Positions 13,301 through 39,551 of a DNA stretch of 64,000 nucleotides are shown here, piece by piece. Each line of letters begins with the position of its first letter. Position 1 is the stretch's first letter. This DNA is from Hydrolagus affinis. Taxonomy: Eukaryota. The stretch is from assembly GCA_012026655.1 (NCBI GenBank), contig JAAILG010000369.1, forward strand, positions 1 through 64,000. Reading direction: 5' to 3'. The notes below the pieces were generated by a model. The model did not search any database and was not told where the DNA came from. It saw only the letters and a list, made by a program, of their open reading frames with translations. The position numbers were made by a program, and so were the translations under genes.

Positions 13301-16300
13301 ATCACATTCAGCAAGACAAGTTGCAAGCAAATCCTACAGGTCAGACTAAATCACACCACCTGGAAAGGTCAGGTTGCCTGACAGATGCTCTCTCAGACGA
13401 TTACCCAATTCTTTTACATGTTCTGGAATCCTCCAAAGATGCTCCAGCATATTTTCTTTCACAAAAAAAACAAGAATTTACATGGCTTAATGAACAGATC
13501 ACACATCAAGGAAATATTTTGGATTAGCTGCATATAACTATATGTTCAAAACATGGGGATTCATTTATCCATACTCAGAAAGGTCCAGATTATTTTTGTT
13601 TAAATTTAAAAACTTTTATTGATCTAGAAGCCTAATTGCAGCACAATATCATAAAGCAATCATAAATTGAGCATCCATCCACTTTTATTTTTCATTAGCA
13701 AAGGAAAACAAATGACACCCTGGTTCTGGAATCCAACATTTATTTAGATTTATAAAGAGCAGAACTGTACAGAAAAATTTATACTAATAGATATCTCCTC
13801 AGTTCCTTCTCCCAATGATCCAAATGAGGATAAACATGCTCAAGGGAAATCATTGCATAGATCATCCATTCAGAGAAAAGGTTTAGAGATGGAGCACAAA
13901 CTGTATAATTCTAAAAATACTCAACTGGTGCTGGCTAAACAGATGTATTAGTTGTGAAATAAGGGGAGAAAATATAATTTAGATTTATGCATTTTTTTTT
14001 GCTTAGAACCATTTAGTTTGGGATTCAATGTAGTTTTGTACCTACAACGGTCAACACAGGGCAAATGGCACTCATGGTTTCACACCCCATTTTCATTTCT
14101 GGTTGGCACTTTACCTTGGTATAGCCAAGATAAATAATGTTCAATGGTGATTGAGGAGTTAAGCCAGCTTGGCAATCCAGAACACAAAGCATTGGAACAC
14201 CAGTTTGTTCAATCACCACAGTGTGGAAAATACCCAACTAAGACAATGAACCCAGTGGATCACGTCGGACCTTTTCCCAGTGGTTTCTAAACATTTTCTA
14301 CCAACCCTCAATATTCAACCTTTCAAGAATTTATTTTGGGAAAACTTGTGGTCATTGTATGTGCCAGTTGGCTAATACTTTAACAGCCTATTTCACCTTT
14401 GATTAATTTGGTCACTTCAATTATTTTACATTATATAACATTGCCATTATGATTTTATATTCTGCCTAGTTATTAGATGAGACAGATAAACACAAACAAA
14501 ACCTTTGCCACTGAATATAATAGCATGGAAAATACAAAAAATTACTGCTATGTTTATACATGGAAGACGTGTTTGTAAAAACTAATGTTTGTATAGAAAA
14601 TTAGTGTGCTGTTTTGCAATGCACTTTTCATTTAGTTCTCTCCAACCCATTAGTTAAATCATATACTTGATTGCACAGACCTGCAAATGACAACAGAGGC
14701 ACATGTCCTGAGTCATTGCAGCAATTAATCAATTGATAACAGTCAGAAAACATACGTATGTTCAACAGAACTAAAAGTCAACACTGAGACTGTCACTATT
14801 TATCTCAGCTTTGTAATGAAGTTAAGCAATACCTTAAGCATTCAAAAGAAAATCAAGAACGCTTAGAAGAATGGGATTACAGTAGTTAGCTTAAATTGGC
14901 CACCAAAAGGACCTCCAGACCCGTAGGGGGGCGATTGCGTGACTGAAGCGAAGCTCAGCCAGGACGATACCTCTGTCTCTTTTGTGGACTCAGCGCAACT
15001 CACTAGTACAGTCTTTCATACAAATTGTTCAGCAGTGTCGCCTCGGGCACTTTTTAGCATTTAAGAATAAAAAAAACTGATGACCCTTCACGAGCCTACT
15101 GAGGACCCACACGACCCTGCATTGGGTCGGGTCCTGAGGTTGGGAACCACTGCTCCAGAATATAAGCAAATATGAAATTTTAAATCCCATGAAGCACTCA
15201 GAAATCTGGATGATGCAATAATCAAATGCAATGATTAGGATTATTACAAATGTTATATATTTATATTTTATGATTCTTGCATTTTTATGCGTTACACGCT
15301 AGCACCAGCATCTGAAATAGAATTAAGTCAATAGCTGCAGTATCAACGACATATTAAATCAGTAATTTGCTTCTTAAAATCCTGCTGGCAGCCTAAATAT
15401 TAATACTTGTATTTGAATAGAGCTTTTCACATCTTCTCGAACTCTCAATGTGCTTCCCAGAATATACTGTAAAGCCCTGAATTGACTGAATGTTTGTGGG
15501 CGAAACGGGGCATCCAATTGCGCACAGCAGTTTCCCACAAACAGTTGCAGAATTAAGTGACCAAATTATTATTTTTTGAGGGATTATCATCAGGCGTGTG
15601 GAGTAAGGAAACTTGCCAAAGGTTTCGCCCTGCCTGGGATTGAACCCAGATTTCTTGCTTGCAAGGCAAGTGCTCTAACCACTGAGCTACAGGACTACAT
15701 GTCCTGATCCGGTCTTACCAGTTTCAGTTGGGGTGAAGGTATACTGGCTGCTGGAAGAGGAACCAAGGTTCAGTTCTTCATTATTTGTATCCTGTTCAGC
15801 TTCAACTTCAGTTTCCTCCTGAACATGCAAATCCTCTACAGGAGGTGAGTCAAGGGTAACAATATCTGAATCGTCACTGGTAGCACCAACAATAGCACCA
15901 TCATCAGCCGATTTTTCTTTTGGTGCCTATTCAAAAGAATAACAGGTATGTTAATTTTTCGTTTAGATAAAAATCTTCAGTATTCTACATTGTTGTTCTT
16001 TAAAGCAGTTAACTTAATTCTGATGTCCGGCAGAGGCGGAGTTGACATGCCACAATTTGCTGCACTCTTTGAAACCCTTTATCTGATGTGGCAGACACAA
16101 TACAGGCTAGCTTTGCTTGAAATGCTGAGGTTTCTAAAGCAATGAGTCAATTTGAACTTAATTAAAAACTGTTACCACACAAGCAAATAATTGAATTGTT
16201 TTGCAAAACAAGTTTTATTTTTCTTTAAATGGTAACTATAATTGTATTTTTTTAAAACCCAAACATTTTCTGCTTTGGGAGCCAAGAGACAACAATGTAG

Positions 16301-18731
16301 GAAGAACAACAACAACAACATTACATTTGTATAGCGCCTTTCATGTCAGGAAACGTCCCAAGGCGCTGAAATGAAGAAATGAACTGCTCACCTCAAAGAG
16401 CGATTCCTTTTCTTTCAAAGTGACTGAGCAGTCAGGAGCGTCTGTGACTGATACTGAACAATCAGTTTCAGCTCCTGCAAAACAATTTACGTTGAAAAGA
16501 AATATTTTAGACTGGAAAATTAAAGGTGACTGCAAGCAATCGGACTAAATATGAAATATCCGAATAATGTGATAGCCAAGCAGTTTGAAGTGCTAAATAT
16601 TCCAGTATACTCAATTTATCTGCTAAATCATTGGGCAGGGTAAAATAAAAGTATTATTAGCCCTTAACACTAATTTTGACAAGTAAGTGGCTCATTGGTT
16701 GTTGCTATAGCTTTTTCTAGCTATTTCCTGTTCGAGGTTTGCTGTTTGTTCAGATCATTAACATTTGTTGTATAATTCAGCTCAATATTAGGTCAAAAAG
16801 CTTACGAAAAATGTTAATAGGGTGGAATTAACCAATTGGTAGTTGCAATTAACTTTTAAATAAGGATTGTTACTTACAAACCATTTTCTCTATGGAGGAC
16901 AATGGAGGGGGAATTCTCACCAAATGAGGTGAGAAAGGTTAGAGAATTTATGAAGCTTGAACAAAATGAAATGGATTTCAGCATACACTGGAGGGAATAA
17001 ATGCTACCAAACACTGCTTGTTCGGACATAGCCAATTTTTAATGATAGCAGTTTTAAAGTACACAGTTGGAAGAGACAATATAAGGCTTTGTAAAAAGGT
17101 AATGCATGGTCTTAGCTATTTAAAGAGAGAATACCCATTTTAAAATCTAAGGCTTTGATGTGAAAACTAGATTCTAAAATTTGTGCATTTACATGAATCT
17201 TCATTTATAACTAGATTATAAGCAGTAAATGTTTGTCAAGTATTTTAGCTGATTATTCTGCCTACCAGAGGGCTTATCTAACTGTTGATGCTCCAGAGGC
17301 CCTGAGCATTCAGCCTCTCCTCTGTCTGGACTCAGTACCTCCACATCAGAACCCTATTAAAAAGTTTTAAAAAGTCAGTCAGCAAACAATATTACAGTAG
17401 AAAGTGCAAAATGTACAGAAGTATTTGCAGTTACAAAAATAATGTGATTAAGGAATATTTTAATCATTCTAAAAATACTGGAATTTTTTTTAAAACCAGC
17501 AAGTTGAGGCTAAACCCCATATCTGATGGAGCTGTGTTAAGGTATAGATGGTTCCGCTCCCTCATTCAATGGCTTTTATAACTCCAGTGCAGGTGTTTAT
17601 GAGAGTGAACCCGCACCAAGCTCCATGATCCTATCACCCCCATTCTCGCCCCACTGGCATCCCATCACCCAGAGAATTCAATTCAAGATTCTGCTCTTCA
17701 TCTTTAATGCCCCTCATGGCCTTGCCCCACCAAACATCTGCGACCTCCTAACCCCCTACCAACCTGTCTGTTCCCTCTGCTCATCAGGCTCCAGCCTGCT
17801 CCATGGAGGAAACTATCCAACAAGCTGGCAAAAGTTAAACATTCAACTCTACTGTGGTTGCACTGGTGGCCTCAATGCCAAGCTACTGTCACATGAAAAG
17901 ATGGCGAGTTTGTTCATCCCCATCATCAGAAAAATGAAAAAGAAATGTCTCATCCAAATTAAGGTCATTAACAGGGACATCAAGATTCTGCTTGACCTAG
18001 TGCAGGGAGAACTTATCATTTTTAGCAGCAAGCATTTCATTATTGAATAGTTATAGTACACTATTTTTCTCCTGTAGAAACAGAAATATCTATGCATTTA
18101 TTTCTAGCATTCTAACAATTTTTTTCCACACATCAGTGATTTGAATTTTTGTTTTTTTGGGAGGCTTTATGTTAGTATGATGAGGGGGAAAAAGATAATA
18201 TAATTATGTGAACCCTAAGAATGCCACTTACATATTTACACTGGTAGATTCTCACATCCAAGATTCACAGGGTCATCAACAACCAATCTATTAACTAACT
18301 TCTTATGAGCTACAAACTCAGTCCCAATTAAAAAAGAGAACCTCCCGAAATGGATGGGGGAAACTGGGAATGTTATCTTAAATAGTTAGAAATAGTTCCA
18401 TATGTTAGATATGATAAAATGAGAAGTAAGAATAGAGAATAGGGATTAAAAAGTAAAGATAAGCAACAATAGGGACGAAACTTCTTTTTAAAAATGAACA
18501 AAAATTAAACTATTAAATTATTCAGAGCAGTGCACAATGGGAACCTATAAATGTGCATAATTCCATTAGTGTGTTGGAAATTCTTTGAATTTTATTGAAT
18601 TTAGGTGTTGAAAGAATGCACAAATCATCTACCACCTTAACTACAAACAAAGTAAAAGAAAAATCTTGTACTTCATGGTGTATAATGGTCCAACCACAGG
18701 AAGATTCACTATCACTGGAACTCTCGGACAT
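1145..18731 (-). CDS. CCPG1: Cell cycle progression protein 1 (ER-phagy receptor), spliced gene span
   Basis: Coding exons 18672-18731, 17266-17353, 16392-16474, 15719-15926, 9993-10247, 5303-5421, 4325-4441, 2041-3476, 1145-1370; total 2592 nt = 863 aa + stop, all GT-AG with consistent phase. Diagnostic peptides [107 protein letters not shown] and C-terminal [15 protein letters not shown] match recalled vertebrate CCPG1. Confidence 0.97.
1825..1955 (-). mobile_element. Degraded Deu-domain/SacSINE-like SINE fragment
   Basis: gacaatgcagca...tgcactggagtg...ggggcttgaacacacaaccttc resembles the chondrichthyan SINE body and tRNA B-box. Confidence 0.45.
2041..3476 (-). CDS. CCPG1: CCPG1 large lumenal-domain exon
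   Basis: Corresponds to the 474-aa ORF 2037-3461; acceptor gactag at 3477, donor AG|gtaaat at 2040. Confidence 0.97.
4325..4441 (-). CDS. CCPG1: CCPG1 117-nt phase-0 exon ([39 protein letters not shown])
   Basis: tttag| ... CAG|gtaac; open reading frame, frame-preserving, coiled-coil-like. Confidence 0.85.
4890..5032 (-). mobile_element. SINE 3' half (L2-like tail)
   Basis: Shares aaagcgcttcacagaatatactgt...gaattgactgtatatttgtggg with many other copies in the window. Confidence 0.85.
5045..5262. repeat. G/A-rich low-complexity tract
   Basis: Nearly pure purine run; explains the overlapping spurious ORFs. Confidence 0.85.
5303..5421 (-). CDS. CCPG1: CCPG1 exon (TSQILKQQ...[13 protein letters not shown])
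   Basis: ttacag| ... AAG|gtgggt; similar to recalled human KIHEDELNDMKDYLSQCQQEQ. Confidence 0.92.
9993..10247 (-). CDS. CCPG1: CCPG1 exon containing the transmembrane segment
   Basis: Encodes [40 protein letters not shown]; canonical splice sites. Confidence 0.95.
13360..13455 (-). CDS. CCPG1: CCPG1 alternative cassette exon, 96 nt ([32 protein letters not shown])
   Basis: Polypyrimidine tract then aag|, weak donor CAG|gtggtg, phase 1-1, open; resembles a 32-aa insert recalled from mammalian CCPG1 isoforms (..EKLWKIPE..). Confidence 0.7.
14278..15152. mobile_element. hAT/Charlie-like non-autonomous DNA transposon remnant
   Basis: Ends CAGTGGTTTCTAAAC (14278) and GTTGGGAACCACTG (15152) are near inverted repeats of Charlie/MER5 type; the 8-bp flanks do not match. 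Confidence 0.5.
15401..15698 (-). mobile_element. Full-length tRNA-derived SINE
   Basis: tRNA-like head (gtcctgtagctcagtggttagagcac...ggttcaatccc), conserved body, L2-like tail. Confidence 0.9.
15719..15926 (-). CDS. CCPG1: CCPG1 exon with second FIP200-interacting motif
   Basis: Encodes [14 protein letters not shown]...[11 protein letters not shown]; donor G|gtaaga. Confidence 0.93.
16392..16474 (-). CDS. CCPG1: CCPG1 exon
   Basis: ttgcag| ... GAG|gtgagc; phase 1 to 0 fits both neighbouring exons. Confidence 0.85.
17266..17353 (-). CDS. CCPG1: CCPG1 exon ([10 protein letters not shown]..., first FIR motif)
   Basis: Matches recalled human GSDIEML; canonical splice sites. Confidence 0.9.
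17620..17802 (+). mobile_element. L2-clade LINE ORF2 C-terminal fragment
   Basis: [39 protein letters not shown] matches the L2 motif HWLP..RI.FK.L...KA.HG.AP.YL..LL. Confidence 0.8.
18672..18731 (-). CDS. CCPG1: CCPG1 first coding exon ([20 protein letters not shown]; LIR WTII)
   Basis: ATG at 18731, acceptor at 18748, donor GAA|gtacaa. Confidence 0.93.
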
Positions 18732-20521
18732 CTTCAAGCCCGGTTAACTGTAAAACAGAATATATCAAACATAAGTCCAGTTCTTTGCAGTGGAGCAGTA
18801 GACAATTTCAGTACATTATTTCAATAGCAGTTAAGATTCAATTTAAATTATGCTACCTGCTCTGAACTGAAAACCATTAAAAAGCCACAATTTAGTTGCC
18901 AGAAGGTATTTGTCTCTGAAGCCGCAATAATCAGTCATCTCTCTTTACACAAATATCTAACCAGCAGACAAAGCATCTATTCACAAAGCAGCTGTGCAGG
19001 TTTTATGTGTGAGCTTAAAATGAAACTGGAGCTTTGAGCACTACGTCAGACAAATCCATGTGATTACAGTGTAGAATAACAAACCAATCCAACCTAAGAT
19101 TATTCTAACAGCTTTTCAAGAATACTGTACCACAGTATTATTAATAGTGATCCTTATCTTTCCACGTGACAATTTTTATTTCAAAAGTAGTTCTGTTTTT
19201 TCAAAAAAAATGAGATTAAAGTACAAGAATCTTAGAAGCAGCTCATTTAGGATTCTTTTCTCCTTTCAATTTATCTTTCTTCCTTGCACTGTACCATATG
19301 AAGCTGACAGCAAACAGGTGTTCAAGGCACTGCTAATGCCACTCTTGAGCCAGTAGCTTGGATAGAAGCCTAGGGAGATTCACCTGCTAATTTTCTCCTA
19401 TTCCCGTTAGACAAATGTCTATCATCTTAGCCCATCTCTGATCAAGGTCATAAAATTTTCATGTATGGAAATCATTGGTTCTAACTGTGTTCTATTATTA
19501 TAATACAGTGCAATGATTATAATACAGTGCAATGATAAATAGAATAATGATCCATCTGATTTAAAACACATTAAAACTTTTATTGTAACAAGGTGCAATT
19601 TAATTCCAAATTTATTCCTAAAATTATAGTAGCTTAAAACAAGAGTTCCGTAGTCTCTGTTTGGTCTTATCCTTTAAATTCACTGAAACATTTTGCACAA
19701 AAACACCTGCATTTGTATGGTACCCCTCATGAAGGAAAGCATACAAAATCCACAAAATATTAAACTATTTTGTTTGTTAAAATGCATCTGCCCAGTGAGA
19801 CAGTTTGCTCCCTCCCAATCTCTTCTTAAAATCAATATTTTTCTGATCTTTGTAAAATAAAACTTAACATGGTCTATGATCTTTACAAACTGATGCAACA
19901 CCACCAATATGTTGCATTTCAAGATCAAAGAAGGAAACAGGAAGTTGACAAAAGTTGCATTTTACAAAAGTTGCATTGAAAACAAGACAAATATTTCTTG
20001 CAATTCCCATAGAGGTTAAGTAATTTAGATCATGAAAATTATCGTGGGATTGAGCACTGTTTATACTGAAACAGAAAACACCTTATTCTTCATCTATTAA
20101 GGGATTTTACTAAAATTAAAATCCTTAATGATGCTTAAAACAACACAAAAAATGCATAAAAATCAATAAATCTTCCTTAATCATTGACAAATATGAAAGT
20201 GTAAAAACATATTCACTAAGACACAGTGTCTCGCTGGTGTGTAATGCAGCTCCATTGTTTTGAGGATGTGCCAAAAAGTTCAGGCCCAGACAGAAAAATA
20301 GCTGCTCACACTCTCGCCATTGCAGTACTGGCTTAAAAGCAGAATAGTTACTGACAAGTATATCGCCAGAAAAAATCTGGAATTAATTTATTCACAAATC
20401 TTGTACTGATGAACAAGATTCAACAAGACAAATCTCAAAAACTATGTAAAGTGTAAGATTTCCACCCAGTTCATGGTATATACTATAGATACTCTATATA
20501 CTGGAATAGGAGAGGTAGTTA

Positions 20522-20829
20522 GTAGTCCTGCAGCTCAGTGGTTAGAGCACTCGCCTTACAAGCGTGAGATCCAGGTTTGATTCCAGGCAGGCAAAACCTT
20601 GGGTAAGTTTCCTTACTCCACATGCCTGACAATAATCCCACAAGAAAAAAAACAACAATAAATTGGAAACTTCAATCCACGACTGTTGAGGGTCATTGCT
20701 GTGCGCAATTGGCTGCCATGTTTCAACCATAGATGTAGTCAATTCACTTTACAGTAAATTCTGTAAAGCACTTTGAGACGTCTAGAAGACATCAAAAGCA
20801 CTAAATCAAATGCAAGGATTACTATCGTT
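20522..20829 (+). mobile_element. Full-length tRNA-derived SINE
   Basis: Head gtcctgcagctcagtggttagagcac through tail caaatgcaaggattt. Confidence 0.9.
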
Positions 20830-22899
20830 ACTATGGTAAGTGGAGCCGAGATTGTGGATCATTAGATATTCAAAAAGTTGTTTAATGACTTACTTTATAA
20901 ATGAGACTAAAGGGATGAAGAAAATTTCAATTTTAAGTACAACATAGTACCAGACCAGAAAAGGCCATTGATATCCATCTGACCGGTCACAAAGTTTGAA
21001 AGATAATATGATGCTCTTATCTTGCCTTCCATTATTTCTTTCAGCAGTTTCATCTTAAATTTAAAGTAATTTAATTCCAGATCCTAGAGATCCTTGATCC
21101 TGAATAGTAATTACGTCACAAGGGTTTGAGTACAAAGGTTTAACAATCCATTATTATCTAGTTGCAACTTTTTGGATGATTATTAATCAGCCATTCACAG
21201 TTGAGAGTAAAACTACAGCTATTTAATGCAGAGCTCAAAATATAATTTTCATGTTAATTCCTCTGGATCAATCACGACTAAAAAAAACACACTAATAATT
21301 TCTGTTTTGGCACCTGTGAATAGTCATCAACACTTGAAACATGGCCATTAATTCCAGAACAAAATTATACAGCTGTGGCTGTTGTATTATTCCGTCATCA
21401 TTACAACAATAACTTGTATTTATATAGCAGATTGCTAGCCATCCCTCAACCATATCCTTATCGTTCTGAACTCCCCTCACCCTCCAAGGTCTATCATGAC
21501 AAAAAAGGAGGCGGCTGTGTCAGGGAGAATAGACACTGGGGCAGTTGGAGTGGCTGCTTTGGGACAACTGTCAGCGAGATCCATGATGGGGCCTGGCAAA
21601 GGATGGAGCAGAGGGAGACAATGATTGGGTCCAAAAGGTTAGGAGGACAGTGGGAGAGAAGGAGTGAATGGATGTCGCAGAGTAGATGGGACAGCATTTT
21701 TGGGTGGGTGGGGAGTAAGTTGTAAGCTCGGGTCAGGGGGGCAGCCAAAACGCACACGCAGAGACTGGGAGCAGCGGTGTTCAGCAGGACATGGTCAGCC
21801 CACAAGCATGGTGGAGGTTAGGGGAGACAAGAGAGAGTGGCGCACAAAGTGGATAAGAGCAGGATGGAAAAGAGGTGAATAAAGCAACAAAACAATACTT
21901 AAGCTCGTGGAGTGTTTGAAAATACGGGGAAATGATATCACACAGGCAGTTTGGGTAATTCGTCCGGGAGGGAGATTTTGAAAACAACAACAACAAAATT
22001 AGATTTGTAGCAGCTTTTCCTTCCTTGCCTGGAACACTGAGCCCTCAGCCCCCTCGCTGACCGTTTGCTCACCCGAGGCCTCCACTCTGGCAATCAGATC
22101 TTATACAGTGTAAAATTTAATACATAGCTGCCTTTTAAAAAAAAGCCTTTTTTTGCATTGTTGCTGTCATGATGACGGAATAAAACAGGCACAGCTGTTT
22201 TGTTCTGGTATTAATGGAACAAAAAGTAAAGTGGGCACAGTAGCTCGTTGATGTATTAATTTATTTATGTGGTCATCTTTTTTGGCTTGACCTCTCTCTG
22301 TGTTTTCCCAGCAAAATCAAGCCAAGACAGCTCAGCTCGCAACCAAAATAACTCGACAACGCCCGGCTCCCTCCTCTGCCCTTTTCAGCCATCTGATGTC
22401 TACATGTCTCCGAAGATGGTGCGTGGAACATGGGGGTGTGTGTGGGGGGGGGGGAGGGGGGCAGGATATGATGGTATGATGAGTGAGGCCAGTGTCTATT
22501 GATGGAGTGGGTGGGTGTGAAGAGAGATTGCAGGGAACAGAGAAACAGAGAGCTACTTAAACCCCCTGCCACCACTGGTCTGTTAAGTGTCCTCAGAAGA
22601 CGCTCTCTCCAAGGTTAGCCCCCAAACACTAGCCCCCTCCCGCCCTACCCAAAGTAGCCCAATGTTTCATTATTACATCCTCCTTTGCACACCAGCAGAG
22701 AATGGTTGATTTAGGTCAGTCGGTGCTTTTGAAACAGTGGTTAAAGTAAAGCTCATCAAAGGGTGGGTGGAGGGGGGCGGGGTGGAAGAGAGAGTTCGAC
22801 AGTGACGTTTATTACAAGTTTAAATAAAAACTTTTTTTGGGGGGGAGGGGGGCGGGGGATGGGGTGAGGTTAAATAAAAAGACTCCCCCGCTTCACAAA

Positions 22900-24300
22900 C
22901 ACACGTCGAATTAATTGAGCGTGAAAGTCGCCCATTCTGGCAGCATTGCTGTCTCTGTCTCTCTCCCCCCCTCCTCCTGCCTCACAACAACACCGTCACG
23001 TGCTGTGACAGCCATAATCAACCGTTTCTCCTCGAGCTCGACAACCGTGGAGTGACACCGAGTGACCCACACACACGACACACAGAGAGAGAAGGGGAGA
23101 CTGAGGGAGTTAGTCTTTCGCTCCCCACCCCCACCTCAACTCTCTCTTTTATAACACTTCGTTAACGACATTTTAAATATATATAGAAAAATAAAAAAAA
23201 GACACGCCGCTGCTTCACTTTATCTTACCTGCTTCACTTTTTTTCATCCGGTGATTGGGATTGAAGAGGGATGATGATAGGTGGGTGGGTGGGTGGTTTT
23301 TTTGGGGGAAAAAAACAGAACCCGCCGTCCTTCTCTCAGCCGGTGTGGAAAATACAGTCGTTGGTTCGCCCCCCCCACCACCTCGGCACGACGACAATGT
23401 TAATGTTGTTGTCGTCCTTGTCCACCTCCACCCGCCTCCCTCCCTCCTTCCTCACCTCGCGCGCACACGCGCAGATAAACACACACAATAACACAAGCGC
23501 GTGCCCACAACCCCCGGCCGCGCGCGCGCCCCTCCCCTCCCGCTTGTGATGTTTTGACTTGACGACGGAGGAGGCACCTGTGACGCGGCGACGCTGTGAC
23601 GATTGGTCTCCCTCCCCCTACCCCTTACAAACCCTCGATGCGTCACAGCGTCGCCGCGTGTGACGCACAAGCACCCCCCCTCCCCATCCTCCGTCGTCGA
23701 GACGAAACGTCACGGTCGTGGTCGCGCTCTTGGTCTAGCGAGCGACGGTTGATTACGGGCTGGGACAGCACGTGATGGTGTTGTTGTGAAGCAGGAGTAG
23801 GATGAGTGGGGGGGGGGGGTTGAAGAGTTAGCAATGCTTCCGGATTGGGCGAATTTCACGCCCAATGAATTAGAGGCTAATTAGACGTGTGTTTGGAGGG
23901 GGTTAGGAGGGAAACAATCTCTTTTTTAAACCCACCCCCAAAATAAGTTTTCATTCAAGCCTTTATACACGTCACTCTCTATTTCTCTCCCCCCCCCCCC
24001 TCCCCCCACTTCATTTTTTTTCCCTTTTGAAGGGTTTTTCTTTAATCACTGTTTCAAAAGCATTGACTGACCTCCTCCCCCTCCCCGCACTACCCTCCAT
24101 CTTGCGCGCACGGCATTGTGGGACTTGTAGTTTTCACAGTCTTCCCTCTACGCTCTAAGGGAACTACAGACGCGTCAGCGCCTCGGCCGGGCCAATCAGG
24201 AGGCTGTTGCCATGGCGCCGCTTCCACAACAAACCGGAACCAGCTGGGAGACGAGACTGTTAACCAAAGGCAAGACCGCCATCACACCAGTGGGGGACTG
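22900..24300. promoter_or_regulatory. CpG island, bidirectional CCPG1/PIERCE2 promoter
   Basis: High CpG density; TGACG half-CRE sites; CACGTG E-boxes; ZNF143-type motif AACTACAAGTCCCACAATGC (- strand, 24113-24132); CCAAT 24192-24196; X-box-like GTTGCCATGGCGCC 24206-24219. Confidence 0.85.
23229..23560 (-). other. CCPG1: Putative non-coding exon 1 of CCPG1
   Basis: Strong donor CAG|gtaaga at 23228 inside the CpG island; the 5' boundary is a guess. Confidence 0.55.
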
Positions 24301-24318
24301 AAACAAGACATAAGAGTG

Positions 24319-24782
24319 TAAGAATTTGCAGGGCGAAAGAAGACCGAGGTCCATCTAGTTCGCCTTCCACCATTCCTGGCAGTCGCTTGTCTCCCAAACT
24401 GTGCGCGGAATCCCGAGATAATAAGAACATAAGAATATACGGTCAATTTTCCTACTTTCCTTCCCCCAACCACGACCCCTTCCTCACGACCCCTTCCTCA
24501 CCACCCCCCCACCCACCCCCACCCCCCCCCTCGCTCTGGTCCCAACCTTGGGACGTTGTTGTATCCTGTGAAGGGCGTTGAAACGTCAATAAGACGTGGA
24601 AGGCGCCATATAAACTTAAAGATTATTATTATTTATTATAATTTGCTGGGCGAAAGAAGACCGAGGTCCATCTAGTTCGCCTTCCACCATCCTGGCAGTC
24701 GCTCGTCTCCCAAACTGTACGCTGTATCCCGAGATAATGAGAACATAAGAATTTGCTGAACGAAAGAAGACCGAGGTCCATC
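24319..24782 (-). mobile_element. Tandem CR1-like LINE 3' ends (about 2.3 copies) with an intervening L2 tail
   Basis: Unit atttgc.gggcgaaagaagaccgaggtccatctagttcgccttccacc...gaacataagaat at ~24319-24436, ~24640-24752 and a partial copy to 24782. Confidence 0.7.
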
Positions 24783-24933
24783 GGCAACACAGCCAGCAAA
24801 CCAAAGTGGGCGATTATAACAACGCAACACAGCAGAGCAGAGGACTAAGGGACGCAGAACCAAAAGCAAGAGGAACAACCAGAAGCATTGCCGATTGAAA
24901 GGGAAGTGACAACTGCATTATTTAAGAAACAAA

Positions 24934-25281
24934 ATGTGTGATGAGACCAATCCAATCCCGGCCTCTGACCCTCAGCTTGAGAAGAAGCAGCAGTCTTTAC
25001 CTTCCCAATTGAATCAAGGAAACCCTGTGTTTTCCTACACTTCTCAACTTTCAACGCCGTCACCTACATCGTATCCATTTGTCAACCCACAGCACCCACT
25101 CTTCAAGACTACTTCTGCTGAATATGGATCAAATCCACCTACTTGCGAAACAGCACCAACTACACACAATCCATTAACACAGACATTCTCTGAACCACTG
25201 AGAAATGCTGGGATGTACCGTGATTCCTCTCTGAATACCTACTTGGACAGGAGCGAAGTCGTTGACTATTTTAGTTTATAA
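24934..25281 (+). CDS. PIERCE2: Piercer of microtubule wall 2 (C15orf65 ortholog)
   Basis: 115-aa ORF with NQGNPVFS, FKTTSAEYG and FSEPLRNAGMYRDSSLNTYLDRS, similar to recalled human NPGNPVFS/YKTNSSHYG/GFYQNNTLNTAPDRT; syntenic position between CCPG1 and DNAAF4; ATTAAA 25366 and AATAAA 25490 downstream. A short upstream coding exon cannot be excluded. Confidence 0.88.
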   Translation: MCDETNPIPASDPQLEKKQQSLPSQLNQGNPVFSYTSQLSTPSPTSYPFVNPQHPLFKTTSAEYGSNPPTCETAPTTHNPLTQTFSEPLRNAGMYRDSSLNTYLDRSEVVDYFSL

Positions 25282-26699
25282 TATTTACTTTTGCATTTTA
25301 TAGATGGTTGATCGCAAAATAGAGCTAGCTGATGAATGTATCTATTTTGCAATGCTGTACAGTGCATTAAATAATATGTTCTAATTCAATCAACTCTAAT
25401 GTAATAGTTTGATAAATATAAGAAATAATCATGCTATTTTTCTTAAAAGTTAGGGGAGGAGCAGTAAAACTGCAACCTTTTTAAATTCAAATAAAGTTAA
25501 CTTGCTTTAGTTGCTTTGGTTAATTGTTTCACCCTTCAGAGAAGAATGCCAGCTTAAGTTATTTTGAATTGTATTTCATTACTGTACAAATTAAATGGTT
25601 GTGACTGGGAAGGTGACTCCGAATTAAAGTGTTATTTGAAGAATACAGTCTACTGCATCTATATAAATCAGTATTTATGCAATATCAAACTATTCCATTT
25701 TCATACCAAATTGAGGCAGCTGTTCACTGTTCATTTTAATGAAAAATTGTATTGTAAAAATCAATGTAACATTCACCTTATAATAAAACTATTAACAGTC
25801 TGCTAAATATTATTTAATTGCAGTACATTACAATTAAAATGTTTGTTTCTCTCGGAAAACAATGCAATAAAGTGGATTCTCTTATTAATTTGACAATCAT
25901 TGTCTTAGGTTTGTAAAGGATGGCAATCTATCACTAAGGTGTGAAATGCACAACACGTATAGGTAACAACAACAACTTTAACTTATCTAGCACTCTCACA
26001 GAGCACTTAACAGCGGCAAAGCCTGCGGGGTGGTGGGAGGTGACCTTAAGCACAGTTCCAAAAGAAGGTTTTCAGATGGGACTTACAAAAAGGGGAGAGA
26101 GGGAGCAAGGCAGAGGGAATGGCGAAGAGTGTTCCAGAGTTTCTAGGTAATAGCAAATAACTCTTGTTATATCTTTGGGAGTGTCAAAATTTGGGCCCTC
26201 CAAATGTTATCCAACATGACACTTTCCTTTATATAAACTGATTCCATGTTTTCACTTGTGATGCTCCAATAGGGAATGTATAAGAGTCTTGTTGGTTTGT
26301 TTCACATTTTCTCTATCCCTCTACAGCAGAATTATCCTGATTTTGCTTAATAGTTTTCCGTATGATCTAGTCCAGAATCTGGAATACTGTTGTGCTGAAG
26401 GGTGATTATTAGACATTTACCTTCTGCTTTAGTACAGCACATTTATAATCCAACCCACAGTTCTATTTTTAAGAAAGAGAATGATTGGAGAAAACACTAG
26501 TTCACGTAAAGTCAATTTAAGGTCACCTGTGTTACCTTAGAAATATGGTCTAAGAAACCTGAGAAATATATCTTTTGGAATTGTTAACTGCTCACTTTCT
26601 AGGGTAGATGTAAATGATGGAATACAGTTCTTTCAACTACTTGTCATCATGAGCCAGGCAAGAAAAATACATGCTCTCTCCCCATTATACCGTTTATAA

Positions 26700-26932
26700 T
26701 CATTGCATTTTTTAATATAGCGTTTGTCATGTCACCTCAATATCTCAAAGTGCTTCACAGAATATACTGTAAAGTCTAATGACTATATTTGTGGGCAAAG
26801 TGCAGCAGCCAATTGCATTCAGCAGTGTCCCACAAACAGTCATTGATTGACCAAATTATTGTTGATTTTTCTTGATGGATTATTATCAGGCATGTGAAGT
26901 AAGTAAGTAAGGAAACTTGCCCAAGGTTTTGC
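26700..26932 (-). mobile_element. tRNA-derived SINE, head truncated
   Basis: Same family body and tail. Confidence 0.85.
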
Positions 26933-27251
26933 TCTTATATGTTATAGTGAAGTTATACACTCCCTTCCCTGCTAAACTGTCATAAATTTAAAAAGATAAT
27001 TATATTTGATCCTCATAAGGAGTTGGAAACTCAGCAACACCAATTATGTTTAATTCATCTTATGTAAAGTTAAAGTTTTTCTAAATTTGTCTAAATTTAG
27101 ATTTTCTGGTTTAATCTAGAGGCCCAGTTTGTATTTAATAAGTAAGTTTGGTGCTTGTCTCTGATATATTTTTGGTGACATAACAGAGGTTGAAGGTAGA
27201 AATCCATTTGTTAGAATTATGGTGTCTAAAACTGCAAGTTGTTTTGTTCTT

Positions 27252-27361: not shown

Positions 27362-30300
27362 CTGTCAAAACAGATACGAGATATCCAATCAATAACAATT
27401 CATGTCAGGAGAGACACCGGTTTAGTGCTTAATGTATTCTGAATGAGCCATTCTCAAGTGGTGGTGGTTCTATAATTGGTCTGAATATTACGTCCCCAAA
27501 TTAGGCTCAGTTCCTTCTCCTGATAACTCATGTGCGTGACCTTTACATTACAGCAGTATTAGCTGTGATGTCCTCACAATGGAAGAACCCATCAACACTT
27601 AGTTTCTAGGTTCGTAATCGAGAAATGACTACTTGGATGATGAGCAATGGAAGTGTGCTCCACAACAACAAAATTACATTTGTGTAGCGCCTTTCATGTC
27701 GGGAGGACATCCCAAGCTGTTGAAAGGCAATATTCTGACACAACAGCCAATATTCATGTGAGAAAACTGGAAAGCAAAAGAAAACTATTATAAAAACCGA
27801 ATATTGTAACTACCATATTCTTTTTTCGCAATAAATGTCTTGCTCTTACCTTCGACATACAATTCCAGCTCACAAAATGCTGTCCCTCTTCTAACATGAG
27901 CCTTCACTCTGGTGTCCGCATTGTCAGGAACCGGCGGTGTTAACAAGTCAAGCGCCTAGAAGAGAAAAAGCTTGTATATGATATTGAAAACAAATAAGTA
28001 AAAACATTGCAATTGAGAGATTACATCTCGTTCGTGGGATTCGAGATGGGAGTTTTAAGATTTTCAAAATTCAAGGATAAACATTATGTTATTAGTAAAT
28101 TTAGAATTTATTACTAATTTCCTACAGTTTCTAAAGTATAGTTGCAAAATATTTGCTTGTGGGAATATTTGCTCAACCACAAGATACATGGTCAAATCTG
28201 CTTTAGAGTACTGTATATTATGTGAAGGGCTTTTGAGATGTCACAACAACATGATAAAGTGCCATATCAAATGCAAGAATTATTATTATTTTATTACTGG
28301 GAGGTTGAACACGCAGGCATTTTCAAAACATATTCACACAAAGTTGAAGGGATTTTTTTTGAGGACATGGAGGATAATAAGAAGACATGCATATCATAAT
28401 AATCAATAACATGTTTAGCTGTTTGGACTGTTTGTTCTGTTCGGAATACACATTTGATATGGTGCACTGTTTTATGACCTTGGAAAATGCAACTTGCAAT
28501 TGGTAGAAAGGTTACACAGATTAATAATGAGAATAATCCTTGTATTTGATATAGTGCTTTTCACTTTTTTTTGTAGAAGTCTCAAAACATTTCACAGAAT
28601 ATACTGTAAGGTGAATTGACTGTATATTTGTGGGCAAAATGCGGCAGCCAATTGCACACAGCAGTATCCCACAAACAGTCGTGGATTGAAATGACCCATT
28701 CATTTTTGAGTTAATTACTATTAAGTAAACTTGCCCAAGGTTTCGTCCTGACCTGCCTGGAATTGGAATTGTCTCTTGCTCGTAAAATGAGTGCCCTAAC
28801 CACTGAGCTACAGGACTTTTATTAAGTGAATTAAAATCAACTTTTGATGTACTTTAATGCAATTTTCTTTTGGGATTGGTCAATACAAGCTCCATAACAT
28901 CAGTCGGGTTGATTGAAAACTAGGGAGTGGCCAATCACAGATCTTAGCCAGGGAACAAAATTAAACACAAATGGGCCAAACAATTTTGACATCAATTCAA
29001 TTGCCCTCTCACATTGCTGTGGAAGAAGAAGAGGCGAGGAGGTACGCCAGGCTTGTTGGAATTGGCCCTCGATTAATCTTTTGGCCAAGAGAGAAGTTGG
29101 AAAGGGAACTTGGCTTATTCCCTTAGTCAGCAATATATTATCTAGTTTTCTAGGAACTGAATGTGAACTAACCTTGCAGCAGTCTTCAATTACTTTGTGC
29201 AAGTTTCTCAATTTAAGGTGGCACGCAGCCCGGTTCAGATATATGACTGGAAGTTTATTGTTCAGTTGTATGGCCAGGTTGTAGGCATTAACAGCAGCAA
29301 GGTAATTTCCTGTCCCAAACAGCCTACTGGAAAAAAAGAGGGTACATTTTAGAACCCCTGAAGTCCAACACATGCAAGTTAATTCTTAAATTTAATTCTT
29401 AACTTTCCGTCATCTTTCTGTCAATCTTGGAATATCCAACTTGCAAGTGGTAGAAAGGTCACATAAATTAAGTCTATTAAAATCGGTACTAAGCAGTATA
29501 TCTTGTGTAGCGCTTTGAGATGTACTCCTGACAAGAAAGGCACTATATCAAGTCAATTTAATTAAATATTTGTTATTTATTAATTATGTTTAGCTCCTCG
29601 CCTGCCGCAAAATTCATAAAAATACATATTTTAAAAATGTCTAATTTTATAATTTTATAATTTTAATAATAAACTTACTTCCCCTTGTCCTTCAGCCAGT
29701 CAGGATTTTTCTCTTCTTCCTTTAAATCGTTCAGCTCAGGAATATCTATATTTTTACACCGTCTAGCTGCTGCCTGTTTTTGTAACCACTGCAAAGAGAT
29801 AAAGAACATCAGTTTCAGTGCAAAGTCGCAGAAATCGTAAAAACAAAGTCCGATTACTGCAATGAAATCCTCCTGTTAAATTGCTATCATTGTCTTTGGG
29901 ATTCTTTATACAGTACCACTAATAACTTGATCCCACTTGCAAAGTTTTGAACAGAAACCAGCTGCTCTGGGTTCACGCATATTTTCCAGCCAGATTACAG
30001 CTAAGCCTTGTAGCAGAATGGAAGTAAATCACCAACCCACCAACCATGTTTTCAGGATTTACTGTAGATGAATGTATAAGTCTGTAAGTGTGAAGTAATG
30101 CTGAAAGGTTTATTCAATTTCTTGATAATGGTAGATTACACAATGTTTACCTCCTCCTCTTCAGCAATGAGGGATTCCCTTAAGGCAGTAGGAAAGACTC
30201 GAGGTGTGAACTGTATGTTAATACTGCCAGCCTCGCGCGGAGCTGGTAACATGTCCTCCTTGGAATCTCCAGTAAATATATCAGTATTGCCATCTGTGTA

Positions 30301-33478: not shown

Positions 33479-33490
33479 GGCTCCCAGGCG

Positions 33491-33523
33491 GTTGCTAGTG
33501 ACGCCTTTCGGTTGCTAGGCAGA
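33491..33523. promoter_or_regulatory. Tandem RFX X-box-like motifs at the DNAAF4 start
   Basis: GTTGCTAGTGAC (33491-33502) and GTTGCTAGGCAGA (33511-33523), 13-45 bp upstream of the ATG. Confidence 0.65.
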
Positions 33524-35602
33524 GTCTCTTCCGGGTTCACTTCCAGCTGGTGTTCTCCCCCTCCCTCCCACAGGTTGGGCGGGTTTCACGCCCAATTGGG
33601 CTTGAAAGACTCTGCTTTGGGCGGGCGCCTAATTTTTAAACCTTTGAACTCAAAATGAGCAAAACCAATGGGAGCCCCTCTAGCTGCCCACAGGAGGCAA
33701 CACATAACATTGGGCTACTGTTGGGGCTAGTCATTGGTGGGCTTTGGGCTACAAATGTAGTTTAATTTAACAATTCAATAATTTAACAAGGTAGGGCTTG
33801 TTTACACTCTCTCTCTGCCTCTTTGTAAGGAGGACAAGTTTACAACATGTTTGCTAAGTGGACACATTCACCATGATTATTATTATTTATTATTCACTAT
33901 TATTATAATAATTATTATAATTATAATCTATTATGTATAAAGATTATTATTTATTAATTCACCAGATGCTCGTTGCAGCGCTGAACACTGATTGTCCAGC
34001 ACCTTGGGTCGCCCTCCCGACATACAAATGTAATTTTGTTGATGTTGCCATTGATACCCTGAGTCTGAATTAAAGTCCCTGAAAATCCGTGTAATTTACA
34101 CGTTAATCTCTGCCCTTTGCCACGAGCATTCCTGACTCTTCCCAATCCAGAGAAGCACAAAATACGACAGGTGAGAATGGTATTGACAGAGTATATGGTA
34201 CAGTATTGATACCCGTGCCGAAACTCACAGCGCAGAAGAAAGCTTTTCGGCCCATCGTGTCTGTGTTGGGTGTTTGAAAGAGCAGTGGTATTTGCCGGTC
34301 TTTTCCCCATAGTCCCCACCCACGGCCTTTGAAGCACTTTGAGTCGTCTCCACAGTGTGCTAAGGCACTAAATCAAATGCAAGGATTGTTATTCTTACAA
34401 TAAATATCATCTGGTACTAAAGGAACCCGCGGAGCAGCCCAGCTTTTGCTTGGCAGACAAATTGGAATTTCACATTCGCTTTTGATTTGCTCAGACACTA
34501 TGTTAAGTGGTACTGCAAACATCTTCCTGCATTCACTGCTGTGCGCAGATGGCCATTTATACTGTTTCTAAATAAAATTGGCCACTCACTCCATGGCTGT
34601 TTGTGGGACCCTGCTGTGAGCAAACTGGTTAATGCATTTCACTCACAAAATTCAGTTAATCCACTTTACAGTACATCATGTGAAGCGCTTTGACACATCT
34701 TAATGACATAATAAGGTGCTATATCAAATATAAGGATGATTATTATTATTATATAAGGATTATTATTATCACTACAGTACTATGGTAGAAGCTGAAGTCT
34801 TTTAAGAATTCACATATCAACTAGCAAGGATTTGAATATATATATATTTAAGCTCGGGATGAGGTGAATTGCTCATCTCAATAGAAAGCCAGCAGCAGTT
34901 GAGATTGTGGCTCCAGTGATTCTGGGAGTTTGACATGTAGTCTGGCCTAAATAACAACGAGCCAGGAAGTCAGTGCAAATGCGAAAGAGATCAGTGAAGA
35001 TAAATAACAGGAAGACGAGATATAAGAACAGAGTTAAGATAAAGAAGTTGCACAAGAGACAGGCTCGCTTATGTAAACACTTTCTTTTTAAGAAGATTGC
35101 GAGACCGTAAACTCTATTATCTTTTGGTGAAAGGGGAGAGTCAGAGTGCAGATTAGAAACCTGGCTAAAACACTGCTTTCGTCCAATCTCTGGGCAAGTG
35201 TTATCAGTATCACAGTGAGTCTTGATGACTTCAAAAGTATTTCAGCCCTGAATAATAGGGCGAGAGATTGCAAACTCTCCCACCACCCCCACCCACCTCC
35301 CCTTCCACCTCCGGCTTATTCAATGGGCATGAACCTTACAGGCCAAAGATTAAGCAAACACGGCTGACTGAGAAGAGAGAAATTCCATCAAGGAGCTTAA
35401 AGTTGAGGTACAAGGACTGAAATTAGAGATGAAGTGAAGGAATGCAAAGCCGAGCAAAAGAAATGAAGGCTCGATTGCAAATTGAAACTGAAGCACTTTG
35501 ACTTGGTTTGTCGAAGAATTAATTGCATTCTAATATTGGAGTCCATTGAACTTTGCGGCAACAGATCAGAAGTCAATGTACCAAACCATATTTGGGCACG
35601 TG

Positions 35603-35941
35603 GAGTCCTGTAGCCCAGCGGTTAGAGTATACTCACATTGCAAGCGAGAGACTTGGGTTCAATTCCAGGCAGGTCGAAACCTTGGGCAATTTTCCTTACT
35701 CCACATGCCTGATCATAACCCCTCGAAAAAGAAAACAATAATAAAATGGTTATTTCAATCCACGACTATTTGTGGGACACTGCTATGCACTATTGGCTGC
35801 CACGTTTCGCCCACAAATATACAGTCAATTCACTTTACAGTATATTCTGTGAAGTGCTTTGAGACATCTAGAAGAAGCCTCGGGACGTCCTCCCAACATG
35901 AAAATCACTATATCAAATGCAAGGATTATTATTATTATTAT
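35603..35941 (+). mobile_element. Full-length tRNA-derived SINE
   Basis: Head, body and (ATT)n tail. Confidence 0.9.
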
Positions 35942-38900: not shown

Positions 38901-39204
38901 TCTTGCTCTGTCCACTCTCTCTCCCTTTTTGCCATTTGACTTCACTCCCAAAAAATCTGCCACATTTTTGCTGATCACTTTGCTCCCAGTGGATACAAGG
39001 TGAGATGTGATGTGGGGAAAGTATTTCCTTTCCTTTACAAATGCAAAATTTTAAATTTTACCTCAATTTGTGATTCGGAACTTCAAATAGAAAAGTGAAT
39101 TTACATGAACAAACTTAATGATGATAATAATAATCTTTGCATTTGATATAGAGCTTTTCATGTCTTCTAGACATCTCAAAGCGCTTCGCAGAATATACTG
39201 TAAA

Positions 39205-39551
39205 TTGAACACTTGTTCAATTTCTGGGCAGGTTGAAACTTTACACACTTCCCCCACACATCTCTGCTTACCCAGCAGTAAGGAGGAAACCGGTTGTTAA
39301 TCGTTTGGCTGATTGCTTTTCCAGGCATAATAATCTCTTCAAAAACAAAATTTTTAAATACAATAATAATTTGATCACTCAATCCACGACTGTTTGTGGG
39401 ACACTGCTATGTGCAATTGGCTGCCGCGTTTCACTCCACAAAATGTACAGTCAATTCACTTCACAGCATTTTCTGTGAAGCACTTTGAGATGTCTCAAAG
39501 ATGTGATAAGGCGCTATTTCAAATGCAAGGATTATTATTTTTTTATTATTA
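39205..39551 (+). mobile_element. SINE (variant body) with standard tail
   Basis: caatccacgactgtttgtgggacac...caaatgcaaggattattatt. Confidence 0.75.

What the first reader, a model, noticed from the sequence alone, without database searches (positions are those of the whole stretch)
22713..24073. The CCPG1/PIERCE2 bidirectional promoter is a large interrupted palindrome (inverted duplication)
The reverse complement of 23641-24073 aligns collinearly, block by block, with sequence to its left. aggtcagtc..tgcttttgaaacagtg.ttaaag: 22713-22746 vs 24040-24073. caaacacacgtc: 22896 vs ~23884-23895. attg.gcgtgaaa.tcgccca.tc.gg.agcattgct: 22914-22950 vs 23830-23866 (32/37). ctcctgc.tcacaacaacacc.tcacgtgctgt..cagcc..taatcaaccgt: 22974-23025 vs 23745-23797. 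gacgacggagga...acgcggcgacgctgtgacg: 23561-23601 vs 23641-23698. The symmetry centre is ~23621. The ~500 bp holding the putative CCPG1 exon 1 and its donor (~23050-23560) exists only in the left arm. The promoter elements (E-box, CCAAT-like, TGACG) are therefore mirrored into intron 1. Motif blocks are better preserved than spacers, which hints at selection or arm-to-arm conversion. Possible roles are mirrored control of the two divergent genes, cruciform formation, or dsRNA in transcripts reading through from DNAAF4.
Basis: partly seen in the sequence, partly recalled or inferred. Interest (0 to 1): 0.75.

Follow-up and report, generated by a model that had tools for sequence, protein, structure and literature searches.

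The report
Old inverted copy of a promoter
In a chimaera-like fish, the shared promoter of an ER-recycling gene and a cilia gene was copied backwards next to itself long ago; one copy kept its key control signals while the other is wearing away, so this looks like an ordinary duplication relic, with one unexplained short signal shared with a neighbouring cilia gene.

Summary
The inverted repeat is real and larger than reported. It has three collinear mirror segments: 22400-22456/24074-24130 (38/57, new), 22713-23025/23745-24073 (236/283) and 23546-23601/23641-23713 (49/56). Two long stretches (~250 and ~490 bp) occur only on the left. Gene identities hold, and the organism is a holocephalan other than Callorhinchus milii.

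The interpretation mostly does not hold. 'Blocks better conserved than spacers' is reproduced by uniform neutral simulation and by SINE-pair controls. The copies are asymmetric: the right keeps the window's only ZNF143/THAP11 motif and a perfect 21-bp dyad; the left has lost both (8 of 8 defined differences on the left). A cruciform is implausible.

Best reading: an old local fold-back duplication of the CCPG1/PIERCE2 promoter (~90 My or more on a borrowed clock), with a working right copy and a decaying, still CpG-rich left copy on the CCPG1 side. Pairing in pre-mRNA is likely a by-product.

Leads: the outermost segment is more diverged than the rest (p about 0.003), so partial constraint or past conversion is not excluded; and the same dyad sits in the DNAAF4 promoter. 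Orthologues, genome-wide copy number and transcripts could not be checked.

The parts
22400..22456 (+). Left outer segment (new): decayed mirror of the core promoter; the ZNF143/THAP11 motif is destroyed here (6 mismatches at defined positions). Homology plausibly runs on through the G tract to ~22465.
   Evidence: 38/57 ungapped to the reverse complement of 24074-24130; best non-self hit in the window
22466..22712 (+). Left-only stretch 1 (~250 bp), bounded by a 3-nt direct repeat (AGG). Holds three TAGCCC words (22616, 22630, 22655) and a 14-mer (22653-22666) also found upstream of DNAAF4.
   Evidence: no other copy in the window by nhmmer
22713..23025 (+). Left main arm
   Evidence: 236/283 identical non-gap columns, 10 gaps, 76 gap bases, Ts:Tv 21:26
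22914..22935 (+). Left copy of the dyad TTGGGCG-N7-CGCCCAA, with 2 mismatches; the adjacent CCAAT and CCGGAAG words are also lost
23026..23545 (.). Left-only stretch 2 (520 bp, against a 31-bp linker on the right); CpG-rich; holds the two best minus-strand donors of the region, at 23455 and 23228 (candidate CCPG1 5' exon ends)
   Evidence: 99.6th and 99.9th percentile of 6862 GT sites, matrix values recalled; no Pfam or Rfam hit
23546..23601 (+). Left inner arm, ending in a 19-bp perfect repeat
   Evidence: 49/56; score 38 vs shuffle maximum 31
23602..23640 (.). 39-bp central spacer
23641..23713 (-). Right inner arm
23745..24073 (-). Right main arm; begins at a donor-like site (first intron base 24071) in CCPG1 orientation
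   Evidence: donor at the 98th percentile, about 1 such site per strand-kb
23845..23866 (-). Right copy of the dyad, perfect; 20/22 identical to the DNAAF4 promoter copy; followed by CCAAT and CCGGAAG
24074..24130 (-). Right outer segment: core promoter and a possible short first exon of CCPG1
   Evidence: the exon is inferred from motifs only
24113..24131 (-). ZNF143/THAP11 SBS2-type motif (ACTACANNTCCCA plus tail), typical of bidirectional promoters
   Evidence: only match in 64 kb at up to 2 mismatches, and it has 0; motif definition in PMC3627581 and PMC3082894
24192..24219 (+). CCAAT box (24192-24196) and X-box-like word (24206-24219) on the PIERCE2 side, outside the repeat
   Evidence: sequence; the X-box match has 2 mismatches and is not above chance on its own (42 of 100 shuffles give as many)
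22800..24800 (.). CpG island, peaking at 23400-23800
   Evidence: CpG o/e up to 1.2 vs 0.44 for the window
24934..25281 (+). PIERCE2 coding sequence (115 aa)
   Evidence: Pfam PF14892 E=9e-14; 85% identical to Callorhinchus milii A0A4W3GFE1
18663..18748 (-). CCPG1 first coding exon and its acceptor; the gene continues to 1148
   Evidence: tblastn with shark and coelacanth CCPG1; large exon 71% identical to shark CCPG1; acceptor
33575..33596 (-). Third copy of the dyad, in the DNAAF4 promoter ~100 bp upstream of its ATG

Best explanation
A single old local inverted (fold-back or template-switch) duplication copied the CCPG1/PIERCE2 promoter region next to itself; two large indels then made the copies 1.2 kb (left, 22400-23601) and 0.5 kb (right, 23641-24130). 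The copies had unequal fates. The right copy is the working bidirectional promoter: ZNF143/THAP11 at 24113-24131 starts CCPG1 leftwards and PIERCE2 rightwards, helped by CCAAT, ETS-like, X-box-like and dyad elements. The left copy lies on the CCPG1 side, mostly in intron 1, has lost those motifs and drifts about neutrally while staying unmethylated as the shore of the island; at most it is a weak secondary enhancer or antisense start. If CCPG1 starts at the core, its pre-mRNA holds both main arms and should fold into a ~300-bp imperfect stem like an inverted SINE pair, probably A-to-I edited, as a by-product. SHOWN: mirror homology, indel map, divergence pattern, motif asymmetry, CpG retention, predicted duplex. 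INFERRED: repair mechanism, factor binding, start sites, lack of function on the left, editing, age. Which copy is ancestral is not resolved.
For: Three collinear mirror segments far above chance. Divergence inside the main arm is uniform: dispersion 1.13 vs 0.66-1.98 in 13 SINE pairs (the pairs share copies and are not independent); simulations match or exceed the observed dispersion in 59-64% and the best 35-column window in 88% of 1334 runs; a 19-bp perfect run has P=0.22 in the inner pair and 0.87 overall. Asymmetry: SBS2 motif 0 mismatches right, 6 left; dyad 0 right, 2 left; 8:0, sign test p=0.008. Shared CpGs kept:decayed 13:7 vs 18:83 in SINE pairs, p=5e-5. No target-site duplication, no Pfam or Rfam hit, no further arm copy in the window. 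Jukes-Cantor distance 0.19 gives ~85-95 My at 1.0-1.1e-3 per site per My from PMC5499810 if both arms are neutral; older if one is constrained. Duplex -346 kcal/mol on the minus strand vs -120 +/- 11 for 30 shuffles.
Against: Identity differs between segments (67%, 83%, 88%; chi-square p=0.006; outer vs rest p=0.003), which one event with purely neutral drift does not predict; the comparison sets an ungapped segment against gapped ones. The left arm keeps the E-box, TGACG half-sites, AACCGT and a donor-like start. Its left-only stretch shares a 14/14 word and a TAGCCC triplet with the DNAAF4 promoter, which is odd for dead sequence. The motifs for the asymmetry test were first noticed on the right; outside the SBS2 and dyad, two positions by eye favour the left copy against DNAAF4. 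No transcript, chromatin or orthologue data were available.
Confidence: 0.55

Rival explanations
1. Both main arms are kept by selection as mirrored cis-regulatory modules: the right facing CCPG1, the left facing PIERCE2 as an upstream promoter or enhancer, in the same orientation to its gene as the DNAAF4 copy of the dyad.
For: Main and inner segments are more alike than the outer one; CpGs retained; collinear word chain between the left region and the DNAAF4 promoter scores 28, reached by 0 of 1114 window tiles; a plus-strand donor at 23281 (98.5th percentile).
Against: No block structure beyond neutral; SBS2, dyad, CCAAT and ETS words are broken only on the left; anchored extension from the dyad to the DNAAF4 promoter is not significant in any of 12 tests.
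Confidence: 0.13
2. Same duplication, but older (outer segment, distance 0.44), with the main and inner arms reset later by arm-to-arm conversion or hairpin-templated repair that stopped at the 250-bp indel.
For: Step in identity exactly at the indel; identity rises towards the centre (distances 0.44, 0.19, 0.14); uniform divergence inside the main arm fits a whole-tract reset.
Against: Conversion-maintained palindromes are over 99% identical (PMC8981503, listing only), so conversion is not going on now; inner vs main identity does not differ (p=0.55); no gradient within the main arm; the outer segment is short and was compared without gaps.
Confidence: 0.1
3. The repeat is kept for its RNA structure: the stem in CCPG1 pre-mRNA covers the donor at 24071 and loops out the donors at 23455 and 23228, steering first-exon or 5' UTR choice.
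For: High identity starts exactly at the donor-like site, and the more diverged outer segment is partly upstream of the inferred start; a long stem is predicted; inverted Alu pairs are reported to promote exon skipping (PMC13019027, abstract).
Against: Mismatches that could form G-U pairs favour the plus strand, not the CCPG1 strand (17 vs 10, p=0.25); the duplex is stronger on the plus strand (-377 vs -346); 7 other inverted repeats less than 2 kb apart occur in this window; donors that good occur once per strand-kb.
Confidence: 0.08
4. The arms are terminal inverted repeats of a decayed fold-back or MITE-type transposon, or two insertions of one repeat family.
For: Arm divergence equals that of local SINE pairs; left-only stretches have 3-4-nt direct repeats at their ends; another unexplained inverted repeat lies 0.2 kb away.
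Against: No target-site duplication within 6 bp of the main-arm ends, apart from one asymmetric 3-mer (the ends of the outer segment, found later, were not tested); no further copy in 64 kb, a weak test; no Pfam hit in 10 frames over the arms, the left-only stretches and their flank; 0 hits for a one-frame translation profile in 1.84 billion proteins, also weak; CpGs not decayed; the repeat includes the genes' own core promoter motif.
Confidence: 0.1
5. Assembly artefact (fold-back reads or a mis-join).
For: The window has two 100-N gaps elsewhere; GC-rich, homopolymer-rich sequence.
Against: 54 substitutions in 339 aligned columns, CpG-type transitions among them, and indels of up to hundreds of bases; three different centres; neighbouring exons are intact (479-codon open frame); nearest gap is 19 kb away.
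Confidence: 0.03

Closest known systems
Duplicated regulatory elements and promoters (segmental-duplication families; Weaver and Lowe 2026, PMC13333887; abstract and passages seen)
   Same: A promoter copied within the genome; the copies keep, lose or change their activity.
   Different: Here a sub-kilobase, adjacent, inverted copy with 67-88% identity, in a holocephalan; no activity data.
ZNF143/THAP11 (SBS2) bidirectional promoters (PMC3082894, PMC3627581; passages seen)
   Same: Exact motif inside a CpG island between head-to-head genes.
   Different: A second, destroyed copy of the motif lies 1.7 kb away in inverted orientation.
Inverted Alu or SINE pairs in pre-mRNA (PMC526178 passages; PMC13019027 abstract)
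   Same: About 300-bp arms, about 83% identical, under 1 kb apart, stable predicted stem.
   Different: The arms are promoter-derived and single-copy in the window, not retrotransposons; editing and skipping are untested.
Conversion-maintained palindromes (mammalian X/Y, PMC8981503 listing; nematode inverted gene pairs, PMC1803023 abstract)
   Same: Inverted arms around a spacer; in the nematode cases they include intergenic DNA of divergent genes.
   Different: Those arms are near-perfect and carry duplicated genes; these are 12-33% diverged, heavily indelled and flank two unrelated genes.
MITE and fold-back transposons (recalled)
   Same: Long inverted arms around a unique interior.
   Different: No target-site duplication at the main-arm ends, no crisp termini, no local copies, no CpG decay.

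Membership tests
Local inverted duplication of a regulatory region | Collinear reverse-complement homology above chance | tested here: met
Local inverted duplication of a regulatory region | Host sequence rather than a mobile element | tested here: inconclusive
   Includes the core promoter motif; no transposon hallmarks in the window; genome-wide copy number unknown
Local inverted duplication of a regulatory region | Junction microhomology | tested here: inconclusive
   3-4-nt repeats at the indel ends by eye; the linker match is not significant (125 of 2000 shuffles)
Local inverted duplication of a regulatory region | Single copy in an outgroup | not testable with these tools
   No eukaryotic DNA collection on hand
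ZNF143/THAP11 bidirectional promoter | SBS2 motif | tested here: met
   24113-24131, 0 mismatches, only match in the window
ZNF143/THAP11 bidirectional promoter | Head-to-head genes across a CpG island | tested here: met
ZNF143/THAP11 bidirectional promoter | Divergent start sites under 1 kb apart and factor binding | not testable with these tools
   Needs CAGE and ChIP
Conversion-maintained palindrome | Arm identity above 99% | tested here: not met
   67%, 83%, 88%
Conversion-maintained palindrome | Arms more alike within than between species | not testable with these tools
   No orthologous DNA
Cruciform-forming palindrome | Near-perfect arms with a very short spacer | tested here: not met
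   Spacers of 39 and 719 bp; in yeast, stable hairpins need spacers under 9 bp (PMC8053094 passages)
MITE or fold-back transposon | Target-site duplication | tested here: not met
   main-arm ends only
MITE or fold-back transposon | Dispersed copies | tested here: inconclusive
   None in 64 kb; genome not searchable
MITE or fold-back transposon | Transposase remnant | tested here: not met
   0 Pfam hits in the frames scanned
Inverted-SINE-type dsRNA (works-like comparison) | About 300-bp arms, 80-85% identical, close together, stable duplex | tested here: met
Inverted-SINE-type dsRNA (works-like comparison) | Arms are SINE copies | tested here: not met
   No match to the window's SINE family
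Inverted-SINE-type dsRNA (works-like comparison) | Both arms in one transcript, with A-to-I editing | not testable with these tools
   Needs RNA-seq

The most novel reading that the evidence does not exclude
The 21-bp dyad TTGGGCG-N7-CGCCCAA, with its companion TAGCCC/14-mer block, is the site of an unrecognised regulator shared by two neighbouring motile-cilia genes (PIERCE2 and DNAAF4), spread by repeated local promoter duplication. The inverted copy is kept on purpose, as a mirrored module facing PIERCE2 or as an RNA stem that picks the first exon of CCPG1, coupling ER-phagy and ciliogenesis control at one promoter. All 5 CGCCCAA words and all 4 near-exact TTGGGCGTGAAA words in 64 kb fall in these two promoter regions.
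Probability: 0.15. Interest if true: 0.65.

Novelty: new member of a known kind. Interest (0 to 1): 0.32.

Why it matters
As a relic it is a clean, datable natural case of promoter duplication with one-sided motif loss in a slowly evolving lineage: useful as a footprint of what this promoter needs, but not surprising. It would matter more if the left copy proved constrained, or if the dyad shared with DNAAF4 bound a specific factor, because that would give a testable shared control element for two motile-cilia genes beside an ER-phagy receptor gene. I found no description of this repeat or motif in ten literature searches; that library lacks most subscription papers, and no supplements were read.

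Tried and rejected
Rfam scan of 20000-27000: one hit, the tRNA head of a SINE at 20527-20591, none in the repeat. Pfam on 20 frames, 15 of them in 21300-23900: no hit there. One-frame translation profile of the two arms against 1.84 billion proteins: 0 hits; weak, one frame of six. N-terminal extensions of 121 stored homologues (120 CCPG1, 1 PIERCE2): 7 had one; tblastn with 4 of the CCPG1 proteins gave no hit in the promoter, so no cross-species exon map. A second PIERCE2 search returned only the C. milii protein, and cluster members of that protein could not be listed, so the 5' structure of PIERCE2 stays open. 'Each arm is a complete intron': donors score well, acceptors only at the 76th and 86th percentile; dropped. 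Continuous paralogy with the DNAAF4 promoter: the word chain beats all 1114 tiles and the dyad beats all 852 tiles, but the flank 14-mer is matched by 5 of 852 tiles and anchored extension is null in 12 of 12 tests; only shared motifs are claimed. G-U strand bias: not significant. Mirror homology beyond 24130: none. Literature search for the dyad words returned only incidental matches among the 30 of 334 papers listed. No eukaryotic DNA could be searched, so orthologues and genome-wide copy number are unchecked; the viral and metagenome contig collections stayed unchecked as well.
Full report
Observation. The main pair 22713-23025 / 23745-24073 aligns at 236 of 283 non-gap columns with 10 gaps and scores 130, against a maximum of 31 in 500 dinucleotide shuffles; the inner pair 23546-23601 / 23641-23713 aligns at 49 of 56 and its best local score is reached by 0 of 1000 shuffles. 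The centre near 23621 applies to the inner pair only. I found a third segment: the 57 bases just right of the right arm (24074-24130) have their best non-self match on either strand of the window at 22400-22456 (38/57; next best 31/57), on the mirror strand, and 0 of 200 shuffled queries do as well. The left copy is therefore 22400-23601 and the right copy 23641-24130, with about 250 bp and about 490 bp present only on the left.

Setting. The plus-strand ORF at 24934-25281 is PIERCE2 (Pfam PF14892; 85% identical to Callorhinchus milii, the only hit among 3 candidates). PMC8595878 (passages) gives the synonyms C15orf65 and Ccpg1os and the ciliary role. CCPG1 runs on the minus strand from a first coding exon at 18663-18731 to 1148. 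Its promoter carries the 10-nt X-box core that is in the human DYX1C1 probe of PMC5024701 (passages; compared by eye). The organism is inferred to be a holocephalan other than C. milii. The repeat sits in a CpG island peaking at 23400-23800.

Where the promoter core is. A ZNF143/THAP11 SBS2-type motif occurs once in 64 kb, without mismatch, at 24113-24131 on the minus strand. PMC3082894 and PMC3627581 (passages) define the motif and show that the ZNF143 site is enough for bidirectional transcription. A CCAAT box and an X-box-like word follow on the PIERCE2 side; the X-box word alone is not above chance. The core thus lies at the right edge of the repeat, and most of the repeat is on the CCPG1 side. 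Candidate minus-strand donors lie at 24071, 23455 and 23228 (98.1, 99.6 and 99.9th percentile of 6862 GT sites; matrix values recalled). Which are used cannot be told from sequence.

Are blocks better kept than spacers? Not beyond chance. Thirteen pairs of SINE copies from the same window have the same identity (79-85%) and a dispersion of 0.66-1.98, against 1.13 for the arms (the pairs share copies). In 1334 neutral simulations matched for identity and indels, 59-64% equal or exceed the observed dispersion and 88% the best 35-column window; a 19-bp perfect run has probability 0.22 in the inner pair. Most gaps fall in or next to G, C or A/T tracts. One difference from SINEs is clear: shared CpGs are kept 13 times and decayed 7 times, against 18 and 83 (p=5e-5), so both copies have been largely unmethylated (inference).

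The copies are unequal. The SBS2 motif has 0 mismatches on the right and 6 on the left. A 21-bp dyad, TTGGGCG-N7-CGCCCAA, is perfect on the right and in the DNAAF4 promoter (33575-33595) and has 2 mismatches on the left. All 8 differences fall on the left (p=0.008). The CCAAT and CCGGAAG words beside the dyad are also lost on the left. Against this reading: I first noticed these motifs on the right; the left keeps the E-box, TGACG half-sites and AACCGT; and two positions outside the dyad favour the left copy against DNAAF4. Factor names for the E-box, CCAAT, ETS, CRE and MYB-like words are recalled, not tested.

A result that favours some constraint or conversion. Identity is 67%, 83% and 88% from the outer to the inner segment (chi-square p=0.006; outer vs rest p=0.003), and the step coincides with the 250-bp indel. 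Partial selection on the main arms, a past conversion tract and selection on an RNA stem could each give this. So could the mix of an ungapped with gapped comparisons in a short segment at the detection limit. Inner and main segments do not differ (p=0.55).

The DNAAF4 link. The four words within one mismatch of TTGGGCGTGAAA in the window (4 of the 12 matches at up to two mismatches) and all 5 CGCCCAA words lie in these two promoter regions. Six of 15 TAGCCC words form two triplets, one in the left-only stretch and one upstream of DNAAF4, each with the same 14-mer, in the same order and orientation relative to the dyad. A collinear word chain beats all 1114 window tiles for both copies, and the dyad beats all 852 tiles. 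But the 14-mer is matched by 5 of 852 tiles and extension from the dyad is null in 12 of 12 tests. Shared motifs are shown; shared descent is not. The dyad resembles E2F and Sp/KLF words (recalled); a literature search for its words gave only incidental matches among the 30 of 334 papers listed.

Structure. A cruciform is implausible: spacers are 39 and 719 bp and the arms are imperfect, whereas in yeast stable hairpins need spacers under 9 bp (PMC8053094 passages). An RNA stem is predicted on either strand (about -650 kcal/mol for 1391 nt; arm duplex -377 plus, -346 minus, shuffles -120). Size, identity and distance resemble edited inverted Alu pairs (PMC526178 passages). Nothing suggests it is selected: G-U-compatible mismatches are 17 plus vs 10 minus (p=0.25), and 7 other inverted repeats under 2 kb apart occur in the window, 6 of them from the dispersed repeat family.

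Transposon and artefact. No target-site duplication at the main-arm ends, no Pfam or Rfam hit, no further copy in the window and no hit for a one-frame translation profile. The last two tests are weak, and the genome could not be searched. An artefact is unlikely with 54 substitutions in 339 columns, large indels, three centres and intact neighbouring exons.

Age and polarity. The main-arm distance of 0.19 gives about 85-95 My at the SINE-based rate of PMC5499810 (passages) if both arms are neutral; it is older if one is constrained, and the outer segment (0.44) suggests older still. Two deletions on the right or two insertions on the left explain the indels equally; 3-4-nt repeats at their ends fit either.

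Other literature seen. Passages of bioRxiv 10.1101/2025.11.24.690135 (an ATF4 site at -259 of human CCPG1), PMC9917250 (no CCPG1 promoter map in the passages shown) and PMC2949395 (a CCPG1 antisense RNA); abstracts of PMC13019027, PMC1803023 and PMC13333887 (passages of the last); PMC8981503 from the listing only. None of what I saw describes an inverted repeat at this promoter. No supplements were read; ChIP or editing tables there could bear on the claims.

Verdict. A real, old, local inverted duplication of a bidirectional promoter with one-sided motif loss: a new member of a known kind. Interest 0.32. The open leads are the identity step at the indel and the dyad shared with DNAAF4.

Noticed in passing
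33489-33760 (-), DNAAF4 promoter: Carries the same dyad as the arms, a further CGCCCAA, a TAGCCC triplet with a 14-mer shared with 22616-22666, and two X-box half-sites (33491-33498, 33511-33518).
   Followed up: partly
21345-21412 / 22158-22217: A second inverted repeat (68 bp, 81%, E=6e-10) around a 745-bp GC-richer interior in CCPG1 intron 1, 0.2 kb from the left copy. No clear target-site duplication, no Pfam hit, no other copy in the window. The interior translation looks by eye like a decayed LINE fragment (recalled resemblance only).
   Followed up: partly
24323-24436, 24640-24752, 24746-24782: Young direct repeat (114 bp, 94%) plus a third partial copy between the promoter and the PIERCE2 coding sequence, with a SINE fragment (24562-24631) between the first two copies.
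   Followed up: no
e.g. 15396-15702, 20524-20834, 28511-28817, 35598-35945, 40795-41093: A tRNA-headed SINE family (Rfam tRNA hit at 20527-20591) with many ~80%-identical copies in both orientations; used as the neutral control. Not assigned to a named family.
   Followed up: partly
34000-51100; N gaps at 43756-43855 and 50314-50413: No long ORF resembling the large last exon of PYGO1 between DNAAF4 and the protogenin-like exons (fn3 at 57084-57569), where I recall it lying in human. It may be absent or hidden in a gap; gene order and the name protogenin are recalled.
   Followed up: no
23390-23416: Small hairpin (8-bp perfect stem, 11-nt loop) inside the left-only stretch, seen in the folds.
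   Followed up: no
24160-24169 (+): A second, partial ACTACA word facing the other way from the SBS2 motif, without the TCCCA core.
   Followed up: no
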